The notes beneath the pieces were generated by a model. It was not told where the DNA came from, made no database searches, and saw nothing but the letters and a program-made list of their open reading frames with translations. Positions 1 to 972 of a stretch of 972 bases of DNA are shown here, one piece after another (the stretch's first letter is position 1; each line of letters opens with the position of its first letter). The position numbers and the translations under genes were made by a program. The stretch lies in assembly GCF_003334335.1 (NCBI RefSeq), contig NZ_QOWQ01000133.1; one strand, 5' to 3'. This DNA is from Escherichia coli (lineage in GTDB: Bacteria; Pseudomonadota; Gammaproteobacteria; Enterobacterales; Enterobacteriaceae).

Positions 1-236
1 GCAATACCGTTCACCACCCGGTAAACACGGGCCGGTCGTTTACCTCCGGCCATGTACTCGTCCGTTTCAGCCAGCATTCCGGGAGCATCAAGCTGTACCT
101 GCTGTTGTGGTACCGAAAGCCTTGCTGCCCCCATCTCGCGCCCGAGCGCGCAAAAGAAAACCCGCGCATAGGCGGGCTCCAGAAGCAGCGGTTCATTGAA
201 TGCTGCTGCAATAATGTGTGAAAGATTACGTCTCAC
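1..236 (-). CDS. C: Head maturation protease / minor capsid protein C (lambda gpC-like, S49 peptidase family); N-terminal 78 codons only (3'-partial, continues beyond position 1). Proposed start GTG at 236..234.
   Basis: Hand translation of the minus strand from GTG at 236..234: MRRNLSHIIAAAFNEPLLLEPAYARVFFCALGREMGAARLSVPQQQVQLDAPGMLAETDEYMAGGKRPARVYRVVNGI…, open to the window edge. This closely parallels the lambda gpC N-terminus as I recall it (MTAELRNLPHIASMAFNEPLMLEPAYARVFFCAL … RQARSYQVMNGIAVLPVSG). The frame is closed upstream by TAG at 275..273, and GTG 236 is the only ATG/GTG/TTG between that stop and the conserved region. Not in the ORF track because no stop falls inside the window. 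Confidence 0.8.
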   Translation of the reverse strand, partial: MRRNLSHIIAAAFNEPLLLEPAYARVFFCALGREMGAARLSVPQQQVQLDAPGMLAETDEYMAGGKRPARVYRVVNGI

Positions 237-972
237 GTGGTGTTGTCTCCTCTTCCGGCCTGCGACTCTCCGCTATCTGCTGCTGATACGCCTGCGCTAT
301 CCACACCGGACGTGAGAGTCCGGCTTTTTCCCGCTCTGCAGATTCCCTGACCTGCTGGCGGAAAATGTCCTGATAATCCTCGCCCATCAGCGCCAGCTCT
401 TTCTCATACGTGCTCAGTCCGGCCTCAATGCGCATCACTGATTCCTGAACCTCCTTGAGCCCGTCAATGGCCATTCTTCCGGCTCCAATCCACTCAGCCC
501 GTGACCAGGCTGATCGCGCCTGATAAAAATCAAAACGTGCCCGTGGCGGACGAATAATCCCCCGAAGAAGTGCCTCTTCCAGCCAGCAGGAAAACATCTG
601 CGTGGCCAGCCGGGACGCAATAAATTTTCGCCGCCCCATAAAATAGCGCCACGACTCATTGGCGGATGCGCGGGCACTTGAATAACTGACCTTCGAGTAA
701 TCACGGGACAACTGTTCGTAGGAAACGCCAAGACCGGCGGCGATATACCGCAGCAGCGCCTGTTCAAGCGCCGAAAATCCATTGTCTGAATCCTGCGCGG
801 TCTGAAGTTTCAGATCATCACCGGGGAAAAGGTGCGGAATTTTGACACCGCCCAGCGTCACGCTATTCGTGTCATACCAGGTGGAGAACTTATCCAGAAT
901 ATTAATAAGCGGATTATCCTTCTGCCCCTGCGGCGCACCGGCGATATATTCAAAGGCCTTTTCGGTATCAAG
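226..972 (-). CDS. B: Phage portal protein, lambda gpB family; C-terminal part only (5'-partial, N-terminus lies beyond position 972). Stop codon TAA at 228..226.
   Basis: Minus-strand frame is open from the window edge at 972 to TAA at 228..226. The track starts the ORF at GTG 861, but my hand translation of 862..972 in the same frame has no stop (…LDTEKAFEYIAGAPQGQKDNPLINILDKFSTWYDTNSV-TLGGVKIPHLFPGDD…), so the gene is truncated by the window, not started at 861. Motifs such as SYSSARASANESWRYFMGRRKFIASR resemble lambda-family portal proteins as I remember them. Position immediately upstream of, and overlapping, a gpC-like gene matches the lambda order B then C. No search was run. Confidence 0.8.
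   Translation of the reverse strand, partial: LDTEKAFEYIAGAPQGQKDNPLINILDKFSTWYDTNSVTLGGVKIPHLFPGDDLKLQTAQDSDNGFSALEQALLRYIAAGLGVSYEQLSRDYSKVSYSSARASANESWRYFMGRRKFIASRLATQMFSCWLEEALLRGIIRPPRARFDFYQARSAWSRAEWIGAGRMAIDGLKEVQESVMRIEAGLSTYEKELALMGEDYQDIFRQQVRESAEREKAGLSRPVWIAQAYQQQIAESRRPEEETTPRET
247..251 (-). promoter_or_regulatory. Shine-Dalgarno sequence (AGGAG within AAGAGGAGA) for the gpC-like gene, embedded in the 3' end of the portal coding sequence
   Basis: Minus-strand sequence reads ggAAGAGGAGAcaacaccacGTG; AGGAG lies 10 nt upstream of the proposed GTG start at 236. Spacing is at the long end of the usual range. Confidence 0.5.

What the first reader, a model, noticed from the sequence alone, without database searches (positions are those of the whole stretch)
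226..300. Charged, proline-containing C-terminal tail on the portal protein
The last ~25 residues (…AQAYQQQIAESRRPEEETTPRET) are low-complexity and rich in E/R/T/P, so probably disordered. Part of this composition may be constrained by the overlapping gpC start and Shine-Dalgarno on the same DNA rather than by portal function.
Basis: inference. Interest (0 to 1): 0.15.

Follow-up and report, generated by a model that had tools for sequence, protein, structure and literature searches.

The report
Portal tail overlapping protease gene start
The last 24 residues of a phage-21-type portal protein form a flexible tail whose final dozen residues are largely dictated by the ribosome-binding site and start codon of the next gene, an ordinary and already annotated gene overlap.

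Summary
The feature is real, but it lies on the minus strand. Window 300-229 encodes I507-T530 of a lambda-family portal, with the stop TAA at 228-226. The window is 100% identical to Escherichia phage PhiR5_1 and 97% to phage 21. Only the last 12 residues (RRPEEETTPRET) are E/R/T/P-rich. The first 12 (IAQAYQQQIAES) follow a weakly conserved amphipathic pattern.

The curated portal model TIGR01539 ends exactly at W506. Cryo-EM models of lambda gpB and of the roseophage R4C portal leave their last 20 and 29 residues unmodelled, so disorder is plausible.

The next gene (gene 5, the lambda C protease/scaffold homologue) starts at GTG 236-234, an 11-nt overlap. Its Shine-Dalgarno GAGGAG (252-247) is read by the portal as E523-E524.

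Across 34 non-redundant junctions, a Shine-Dalgarno always sits in the tail, as Glu-Glu or in another frame as Gly-Gly. Tail Glu codons are 88% GAG against 53% elsewhere. The portal stop is nested in the protease's conserved Arg-Asn codons in 36 of 39 unique junctions. That nesting restricts the portal's last residue to A, T, P or S.

The finding is ordinary and already annotated.

The parts
229..972 (-). C-terminal 248 codons of the portal protein (phage 21 gene 4, lambda B homologue; the full protein is 530 aa)
   Evidence: Open frame. 100% identical to the PhiR5_1 portal CDS and 97% to phage 21. phmmer to lambda gpB 8k38 gave E=1.8e-95. TIGR01539 scored 705.6 bits against a cut-off of 172.7. 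PF05136 matched.
301..303 (-). Codon of W506, the last invariant residue of the portal family and the end of the conserved core
   Evidence: It is the last invariant column of the 41-sequence alignment. The TIGR01539 match ends at residue 506 with the whole model used. W is present in 81 of 81 homologues.
265..300 (-). Proximal tail I507-S518 (IAQAYQQQIAES), a weakly conserved amphipathic segment not overlapped by gene 5 signals
   Evidence: The family pattern is [IA]-A-x-[AT]-[FY]-x-x-[QG]-[LI]-x-x-S, with hydrophobic residues at +1, +5 and +9. 78% of codon differences are non-synonymous, against 42% in the crown. AlphaFold2 gives a helix here, but at low confidence.
229..264 (-). Distal tail R519-T530 (RRPEEETTPRET), low-complexity and hydrophilic, with no amino-acid conservation
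   Evidence: 12/12 E/R/T/P and the lowest-entropy 12-mer in the protein. Mean hydropathy is 0.196. 90% of codon differences are non-synonymous.
247..252 (-). Shine-Dalgarno GAGGAG of gene 5, which is also portal codons E523-E524
   Evidence: Annotated as ribosome_binding_site in OL657228 and M81255. Duplex energy with the anti-Shine-Dalgarno sequence is -7.2 kcal/mol. A Shine-Dalgarno is present in the tail of all 34 non-redundant junctions.
237..246 (-). 10-nt spacer ACAACACCAC between the Shine-Dalgarno and the start codon (portal T525, T526, P527 and the first base of R528)
   Evidence: Read directly from the sequence. The only polymorphic site in 252-226 among 81 close relatives is position 238, A/C, which is synonymous in the portal.
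234..236 (-). GTG start codon of gene 5 (lambda C homologue, S49-type prohead protease/scaffold)
   Evidence: It is the only in-frame start between the upstream stop and the conserved RNL motif. It is annotated as the start in three records. Relatives L091 and L119 have ATG at the same position.
226..236 (-). 11-nt overlap of the portal and gene 5 reading frames; the portal stop TAA (228-226) lies inside the gene 5 codons CGT AAT (Arg3-Asn4)
   Evidence: The same nesting is seen in 36 of 39 unique junctions.
1..236 (-). First 78 codons of gene 5, running off the window. The conserved N-terminal motif R-N-L-S-H-I-I-A-A-A-F-N-E-P-L occupies about 230-186.
   Evidence: Frame shown. N, L, I, N, P and L of the motif are invariant in 31 of 31 junctions. 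Gene callers assign PF01343 Peptidase_S49 to the downstream gene in relatives. The SppA domain scores 111.9 bits.

Best explanation
The flagged segment is the C-terminal extension of a lambda-family (phage 21-type) portal protein, lying beyond the last conserved residue of the crown domain (W506).

It has two parts. Residues 507-518 form a weakly conserved amphipathic segment that belongs to the portal. Residues 519-530 are a hydrophilic, probably disordered end whose sequence is mostly a read-through of the translation signals of the next gene.
- The portal frame reads the gene 5 Shine-Dalgarno GAGGAG as Glu-Glu.
- It reads the spacer as Thr-Thr-Pro.
- It reads the GTG start and the first codons of gene 5 as Arg-Glu-Thr.
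- It stops at the TAA created by the protease's conserved Arg-Asn codons (CGT AAT).

Shown here: the anatomy, its conservation across the family, and the nucleotide-level (not amino-acid-level) conservation of the distal part.

Inferred: the arrangement (GTG start, moderate Shine-Dalgarno, 10-nt spacer, start 8 nt upstream of the portal stop) gives low-level gene 5 translation that may be coupled to portal translation. That would suit two minor procapsid components. It is also inferred that the distal residues have little or no role in portal function.
For: Identity and annotation.

Family core ends at W506.

Homologous tails are unmodelled or disordered in cryo-EM: lambda gpB, 20 residues (PMC10721106); R4C, 29 residues (PMC10276861).

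Junction comparison:
- The portal stop is nested in the protease's Arg-Asn codons in 36 of 39 unique junctions.
- The gene 5 start lies at -8, -11, -14 or -17 relative to the portal stop.
- A Shine-Dalgarno is always inside the tail, but in different portal reading frames (E-E, K-E-E, Q-E-D, G-G, G-E, W-G-G, I-G-V).

Glu codons in the last 15 codons are GAG 61 to GAA 8, against 663 to 596 elsewhere (odds ratio 6.9, Fisher p=1e-9).

Shine-Dalgarno pairing energy is at the median in the top 2% of windows within the portal genes.

The last portal residue is A, T, P or S in 31 of 31 junctions and in 74 of 81 proteins.

In the two lineages without overlap (L122, L123) the portal ends immediately after the Shine-Dalgarno.

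In L114 a 12-nt insertion recreates the Shine-Dalgarno at the same distance from the start.

The fraction of codon differences that are non-synonymous rises from 42% (crown) to 78% (proximal tail) to 90% (distal tail).
Against: - Synonymous recoding of single lineages often still yields an equally good Shine-Dalgarno (median 27% of recodings; 61% for this window). For this sequence alone, codon choice therefore cannot separate selection on the Shine-Dalgarno from selection for acidic residues.
- The junctions are phylogenetically related, so the Fisher p-value is overstated.
- Where several start codons were possible I picked the one with the best Shine-Dalgarno, which is partly circular. Most junctions (26 of 39) had only one candidate.
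- The AlphaFold2 model was poor overall (mean pLDDT 57) and gives no independent support for disorder.
- No experiment on translational coupling or on tail truncation was found.
Confidence: 0.8

Rival explanations
1. The acidic, hydrophilic tail is selected at the protein level. It might act as an interior-facing flexible arm that repels or senses packaged DNA, or that docks the scaffold/protease during procapsid assembly. On this view the Shine-Dalgarno merely exploits Glu codons that are there anyway.
For: - A tail is kept in all 81 homologues examined (11-28 residues, median 23).
- The last 12 residues are enriched in E (2.3-fold), N, K, T and D, and almost free of hydrophobic residues.
- 62% of tails carry a net negative charge.
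- The amino-acid sequence alone often suffices to give a Shine-Dalgarno.
- The proximal half shows a protein-level amphipathic pattern.
Against: - There is a strong GAG-over-GAA bias specific to the tail.
- Lineages that read the Shine-Dalgarno as G-G or I-G-V lack the acidic cluster (L118, L120, L121, L101).
- Lineages without overlap end the protein right after the Shine-Dalgarno (L122, L123).
- The last residue is exactly what the protease's Arg codon permits.
- 90% of codon differences in the distal tail are non-synonymous.
- The tail is not resolved in two virion structures.
Confidence: 0.15
2. The overlap hosts a programmed ribosomal frameshift that makes a portal-protease fusion protein.
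For: - The gene 5 frame is open for 13 codons upstream of its GTG.
- Databases contain fused portal plus Peptidase_S49 ORFs (P0077, P0107, P0115). P0107 switches frame inside the tail.
Against: - There is no X XXY YYZ slippery heptamer in window 300-226 (read directly).
- There is no stable RNA structure there: fold z-score -0.11, and no Rfam family.
- The fused ORFs are singleton clusters, consistent with sequencing errors or pseudogenes.
- In this lineage a stop codon (TAG 275-273) closes the gene 5 frame upstream.
Confidence: 0.02
3. The low-complexity run is a chance feature with no constraint of any kind.
For: It is short (12 residues), and the tail is poorly conserved at the amino-acid level.
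Against: - Only 1 of 5000 shuffles gave a 12/12 E/R/T/P run.
- The underlying nucleotides (Shine-Dalgarno, start codon, nested stop) are conserved across the family.
- Only one variable site falls in 252-226 among 81 close relatives.
Confidence: 0.03

Closest known systems
Phage 21 gene 4 / gene 5 junction (GenBank M81255 and OL657228)
   Same: The arrangement is the same: a 530-aa portal, a GTG start for gene 5 that overlaps the portal by 11 nt, and an annotated ribosome-binding site at the same bases. The window is 97% identical to phage 21 and 100% identical to Escherichia phage PhiR5_1.
   Different: A few point differences only, for example A508 here against E508 in phage 21.
Bacteriophage lambda B (portal) / C (protease) junction
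   Same: - The portals are homologous (E=1.8e-95).
- In both, the portal stop TAA is nested in the gpC Arg-Asn codons.
- In both, a GAGGAG-type Shine-Dalgarno is read as Glu residues in the tail (L103 and L104 carry the lambda-type tail TEEEKSDSRAA).
- The C-terminal 20 residues are not modelled in the virion cryo-EM structure.
   Different: - Lambda-type junctions start gene C 17 nt before the portal stop, a 20-nt overlap, because gpC has three extra N-terminal residues (M-T-A-E-L-R-N against M-R-R-N).
- The spacer is 4 nt instead of 10.
- The tail sequence is unrelated beyond the Glu-Glu.
Disordered C-terminal tails of other lambda-family portals (roseophage R4C, PDB 8GTD)
   Same: The crown domain is followed by an unresolved C-terminal stretch of 29 residues. 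R4C is a distant sequence relative (E=1.4e-10).
   Different: The tail sequences show no similarity. I did not examine the downstream gene context of R4C.
Overlapping stop/start junctions with a Shine-Dalgarno inside the upstream gene (general bacterial and phage translational coupling; from established knowledge)
   Same: The downstream start lies a few nucleotides upstream of the upstream stop, and the Shine-Dalgarno is embedded in coding sequence and shapes its codons.
   Different: Coupling itself was not tested here. The overlap is 11 nt, rather than the more common 1- or 4-nt ATGA/TAATG types.

Membership tests
Lambda-family phage portal protein (TIGR01539 portal_lambda / Pfam PF05136 Phage_portal_2) | Whole-protein score above the curated cut-off of the family model | tested here: met
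   TIGR01539 scored 705.6 bits against a cut-off of 172.7, matching residues 26-506 to model positions 1-457 of 457. PF05136 matched at E=6e-100 over residues 29-397.
Lambda-family phage portal protein (TIGR01539 portal_lambda / Pfam PF05136 Phage_portal_2) | Sequence homology to a structurally solved portal of the family | tested here: met
   phmmer to lambda gpB (8k38) gave E=1.8e-95 over fragment residues 1-241 of 248.
Lambda-family phage portal protein (TIGR01539 portal_lambda / Pfam PF05136 Phage_portal_2) | Head-gene context: terminase large subunit, gpW, portal, S49 protease/scaffold | tested here: met
   Annotated context in PhiR5_1 and phage 21. The same gene order is seen in ten relatives.
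Intrinsically disordered C-terminal tail | Low hydropathy and low sequence complexity | tested here: met
   Residues 519-530 have mean hydropathy 0.196 against a boundary of 0.443, and form the lowest-entropy 12-mer in the protein. Residues 507-518 are borderline (0.452).
Intrinsically disordered C-terminal tail | No ordered density in solved structures of homologues | tested here: met
   Literature only. The lambda gpB model lacks its 20 C-terminal residues (PMC10721106). R4C has a disordered 29-residue C-terminus (PMC10276861).
Intrinsically disordered C-terminal tail | Low confidence or no stable structure in a prediction for this protein | tested here: inconclusive
   AlphaFold2 gave mean pLDDT 57 for the whole model. 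It predicted a helix at 507-524 with pLDDT about 50-65, and residues 524-530 below 50. The model is too poor overall to discriminate.
Intrinsically disordered C-terminal tail | Direct biophysical evidence of disorder in this protein | not testable with these tools
   Needs NMR, hydrogen-deuterium exchange or cryo-EM of the phage 21-type portal.
Overlapping-gene junction with translational coupling | The downstream start codon lies within or next to the end of the upstream ORF | tested here: met
   GTG at 236-234 and the portal stop at 228-226 give an 11-nt overlap.
Overlapping-gene junction with translational coupling | A Shine-Dalgarno for the downstream gene inside the upstream coding sequence, conserved in relatives | tested here: met
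   GAGGAG at 252-247. A Shine-Dalgarno is present in all 34 non-redundant junctions, with pairing energy at the median in the top 2% of windows in the portal genes. Tail Glu codons are 88% GAG.
Overlapping-gene junction with translational coupling | Downstream translation depends on translation of the upstream gene | not testable with these tools
   Needs reporter fusions with premature stops in the portal gene.
S49 (SppA-like) prohead protease, lambda gpC homologue (downstream gene) | Peptidase_S49 domain | tested here: met
   PF01343 is recorded for the downstream gene of relatives. The SppA domain TIGR00706 matched at E=3.2e-32 with 111.9 bits; this is below the equivalog cut-off of 155, as expected for a phage paralogue.
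Programmed -1 ribosomal frameshift site | Slippery heptamer X XXY YYZ in the upstream frame plus a downstream stimulatory structure | tested here: not met
   No such heptamer is present in the codons of 300-226 (read). The RNA fold z-score is -0.11, and no Rfam family matched.

The most novel reading that the evidence does not exclude
The conserved nesting of the portal stop inside the protease's Arg-Asn codons, with a deliberately weak start (GTG, 10-nt spacer), could be a stoichiometry device. Ribosomes finishing the portal would reinitiate on gene 5, so that protease and portal are made in roughly equal, low numbers. The proximal amphipathic segment (507-518) could also be a docking helix for the protease/scaffold inside the procapsid. 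Neither idea is excluded by the evidence, and neither was tested.
Probability: 0.2. Interest if true: 0.3.

Novelty: already known. Interest (0 to 1): 0.1.

Why it matters
It matters little beyond annotation.

The analysis gives a clean example of how a downstream gene's ribosome-binding site, start codon and first codons can write the last residues of the upstream protein. In this family that means Glu-Glu from GAGGAG, and a final A, T, P or S from the protease's CGT codon.

Two practical cautions follow. Acidic, disordered portal tails in this family should not be given a protein-level function without controls. Anyone engineering lambda or phage 21 portals, for example with C-terminal tags or truncations, will disturb expression of the protease gene.

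Tried and rejected
- A viral-contig scan with a 41-sequence alignment returned only loci at least 98% identical to the window. It was useful only for polymorphism counts, so diversity had to come from genome contigs and the look-up of encoding contigs.
- My first tblastn reference was out of frame and was repeated. tblastn matches never extended past fragment residue 236 of 248 (full-length 518), so BLAST cannot align the distal tail.
- The AlphaFold2 model from the 41-sequence alignment was poor (mean pLDDT 57). I did not use it as evidence and ran no fold search on it.
- The synonymous-recoding test was not significant for any single lineage.
- RNA structure around the junction: z-score -0.11. 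The Rfam scan gave only a sub-threshold ssnA hit (E=0.16) elsewhere in the window. A structured RNA element is rejected.
- The frameshift-fusion idea is rejected: there is no slippery site, and the fused database ORFs are singletons.
- The plus-strand ORFs over 226-300 (196-315, 218-286, 237-350) have no support and lie antisense to two well-supported genes.
- Literature: the J Virol 2024 paper on the lambda portal vertex (PMC11092355) is not held. A search for papers on B-C translational coupling found nothing. Searching for the PDB codes gave no relevant paper.

Full report
**What is in the window.** The 972-base window is the reverse complement of the junction between a portal gene and a prohead-protease gene in a lambdoid phage. 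On the minus strand one frame is open from 972 to 229 and ends …AQAYQQQIAESRRPEEETTPRET, with the stop TAA at 228-226. A second frame, shifted by one base, reads …HHVRRNLSHIIAAAFNEPLLLEPAYARVFF… and runs off the window. Megablast finds 100% identity to Escherichia phage PhiR5_1 and 97% to phage 21. In PhiR5_1, in the complete phage 21 genome (OL657228) and in the original head-operon record (M81255), the portal (gene 4, lambda B homologue, 530 aa) ends at the base corresponding to window 226. In the same records the protease/scaffold gene (gene 5, lambda C homologue) starts at the GTG corresponding to 236-234. The two phage 21 records also annotate a ribosome-binding site at 251-247. The flagged coordinates 226-300 are therefore exactly I507-T530 plus the stop, read on the minus strand.

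**Checking the observation.** The E/R/T/P richness applies to half of the flagged stretch. The last 12 residues (RRPEEETTPRET) are 12/12 E/R/T/P, against 25.5% for the whole protein. They form the lowest-entropy 12-mer of the protein, and only 1 of 5000 shuffles produced such a run. The preceding 12 residues (IAQAYQQQIAES) contain a single E and no R, T or P. By the charge-hydropathy rule the distal half is clearly in the disordered range (0.196 against a boundary of 0.443). The proximal half is borderline (0.452).

**Where the conserved portal ends.** In a 41-sequence alignment of homologues (60-88% identity) the last invariant column is W506. The curated NCBIfam model for lambda-type portals (TIGR01539) matches residues 26-506 using its full length (705.6 bits against a cut-off of 172.7). 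Pfam PF05136 covers residues 29-397. The flagged tail therefore begins immediately after the family core.

**Structural evidence from homologues.** The fragment matches lambda gpB chains in the PDB at E=1.8e-95. The lambda virion cryo-EM paper states that gpB was modelled without its 20 C-terminal residues and that the crown domain spans 453-511 (PMC10721106). By the alignment, the unmodelled part corresponds to about residues 511-530 here. The portal of roseophage R4C (8GTD) is a distant relative by sequence. It is described as having three crown helices plus a disordered 29-residue C-terminus (PMC10276861). My own AlphaFold2 run was poor overall (mean pLDDT 57). It gave a low-confidence helix at 507-524, with 524-530 below 50, and I do not rely on it.

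**Comparing the tail across homologues.** Among 81 full-length homologues that carry the G-L-x-x-P-x-W anchor, the tail after the Trp is 11-28 residues long (median 23). The last 12 residues are enriched in E, N, K, T and D and almost devoid of hydrophobic residues. Anchored on the Trp, positions +1 to +12 follow the pattern [IA]-A-x-[AT]-[FY]-x-x-[QG]-[LI]-x-x-S. Hydrophobic residues fall at +1, +5 and +9, which is an amphipathic-helix periodicity, and Ser at +12 is present in 64 of 80 sequences. Beyond +12 no position is conserved except a tendency to Glu at +15 to +17.

At the DNA level, the fraction of codon differences that are non-synonymous rises along the protein:

| Region | Non-synonymous fraction of codon differences |
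|---|---|
| Crown | 42% |
| Proximal tail | 78% |
| Distal tail | 90% |

**Comparing the junction across homologues.** I collected 39 unique junctions, which reduce to 34 non-redundant ones by tail sequence. They came from one scan of species-representative genomes and ten exact-protein look-ups.

- In 36 of 39, the Asn codon of the protease's N-terminal motif begins one base after the first base of the portal stop. The portal TAA is therefore nested in CGT AAT (Arg-Asn).
- The protease motif R-N-L-[PS]-H-I-A…F-N-x-P-L is highly conserved, with N, L, I, N, P and L invariant in 31 of 31.
- In contrast, the portal residues encoded by the same bases vary. The last one is always A, T, P or S, which is exactly the set of xCG codons allowed by the protease's CG(T) (31 of 31 junctions; 74 of 81 proteins).
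- The protease start lies at -8 (as here, GTG or ATG), -11, -14 or -17 (lambda type) relative to the portal stop. This depends on how many residues precede R-N.
- Two lineages have no overlap, and in both the portal ends immediately after the Shine-Dalgarno (…Q-E-K-E* and …P-T-S-E*).

**The Shine-Dalgarno inside the tail.** Every junction has a Shine-Dalgarno inside the portal tail. Its pairing energy with the anti-Shine-Dalgarno sequence is at the median in the top 2% of all windows in the same portal gene.

- It is read by the portal as E-E (GAG GAG), K-E-E, Q-E-D or N-E-E.
- In other frames it is read as G-G (GGA GGx), T-G-E, W-G-G or I-G-V. What is conserved is the nucleotide motif, not the amino acids.
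- Glu codons in the last 15 codons are GAG 61 to GAA 8. In the rest of the portal genes they are 663 to 596 (odds ratio 6.9, Fisher p=1e-9, not corrected for relatedness).
- In the Citrobacter prophage L114, a 12-nt insertion leaves the old GAAGAGGAG stranded upstream and recreates CAGGAGG at the original distance from the GTG.
- In this window the Shine-Dalgarno is GAGGAG (252-247, which is E523-E524). It pairs at -7.2 kcal/mol, has a rather long 10-nt spacer, and precedes a GTG start. These are weak signals compared with the AAGGAGG plus ATG of many relatives.
- Among 81 relatives of 94-100% identity, only one site varies in 252-226. It is position 238, in the spacer, and is synonymous in the portal.

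**Caveats.**
- For single lineages, resampling synonymous codons often keeps an equally good Shine-Dalgarno (median 27%; 61% for this window). The codon-level argument therefore holds at family level only.
- The junctions are related to one another, so the Fisher p-value is overstated.
- Where several start codons were possible I chose the one with the best Shine-Dalgarno. Most junctions (26 of 39) had a single candidate.

**Alternatives checked.**
- There is no significant RNA structure around the junction (z-score -0.11).
- There is no Rfam family. The only hit was a sub-threshold ssnA match elsewhere in the window.
- There is no slippery heptamer in the tail codons (read). The few fused portal-protease ORFs in the protein database are singleton clusters, and P0107 simply changes frame within the tail. 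A programmed frameshift is therefore not supported.
- The plus-strand ORFs over the region are antisense to two well-supported genes and have no other support.

**Interpretation.** The tail has two parts. The proximal segment (507-518; window 300-265) is a weakly conserved amphipathic stretch that belongs to the portal. Its role is unknown, and it is not resolved in the mature lambda virion. The distal segment (519-530; window 264-229) is best explained as the portal frame reading through the translation signals and first codons of gene 5. It ends when it meets the TAA formed by the protease's conserved Arg-Asn codons. Its composition of purine-rich codons (Glu and Arg), followed by Thr/Pro from the spacer and Arg-Glu-Thr from the GTG-AGA-CG bases, follows from those signals. 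It is an inference that the weak start, placed 8 nt before the portal stop, gives low and possibly coupled expression of the protease. That would fit two minor procapsid components, but it was not tested.

**Verdict.** Its interpretation is supported. The junction is already annotated in public records of phage 21 and PhiR5_1, and the disordered tail is already evident in published lambda-family portal structures. This is an ordinary feature of low interest.

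Noticed in passing
window 1-225 (minus strand, the part coding only for gene 5): Among 81 relatives of 94-100% identity, the gene 5 part of the window has 26 variable sites per 100 nt, against 11 per 100 nt in the portal part. 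Phage D2 matches only the portal side (bases 1-624 of the minus-strand query, i.e. window 972-349). This suggests mosaic exchange in or near the protease N-terminal region.
   Followed up: no
proteins P0077, P0107, P0115; P0107 residues about 500-540: Database ORFs fuse the portal to the S49 protease (748-912 aa). P0107 switches from the portal frame to the protease frame inside the tail (…AAFESG|CDNQQRRRRVTAELRNL…). They are singleton clusters, so they are probably sequencing frameshifts or pseudogenes.
   Followed up: partly
L114:2540-2605 (Citrobacter sp. Cb027 prophage): A 12-nt insertion (AAAAAACAGGAG) in the portal tail duplicates the Shine-Dalgarno and keeps its distance to the GTG. The older GAAGAGGAG is left upstream as a relic, read as P-E-E-E.
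   Followed up: partly
window 323-306 (minus strand): There is an inverted repeat CCGGAC…GTCCGG (6-bp stem, 6-nt loop) within the codons for the conserved A-G-L-S-R-P motif. It is not conserved at the DNA level in relatives such as L087, and the regional fold is no better than shuffles.
   Followed up: partly
L122:2560-2600 and L123:2535-2570: Two lineages have non-overlapping junctions. The portal stop falls immediately after the Shine-Dalgarno, and the protease ATG follows the stop codon after 7 or 5 nt. Their tails are correspondingly shorter after the Shine-Dalgarno.
   Followed up: partly
L085 (JAIJJM010000092.1, 'MAG: Collinsella sp.'), H33 (MW057783 'Campylobacter phage CJLB-4'), L106 ('Chryseobacterium sp. 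18061'): Enterobacterial lambdoid head genes appear in records named for unrelated hosts: an Actinobacteria MAG, a Campylobacter phage and a Chryseobacterium genome. This is probably contamination or mis-binning.
   Followed up: no
window 38-80 (minus strand): A weak Rfam hit to ssnA RNA scored 17.4 bits against a gathering threshold of 37.3 (E=0.16), inside the gene 5 coding sequence. It is most likely chance.
   Followed up: no
M81255.1 annotation (L002:655-2247): The 1990s phage 21 record labels the gene 4 product 'head-tail preconnector gp5', the same name it gives to gene 5. This looks like a product-name slip in the record.
   Followed up: no
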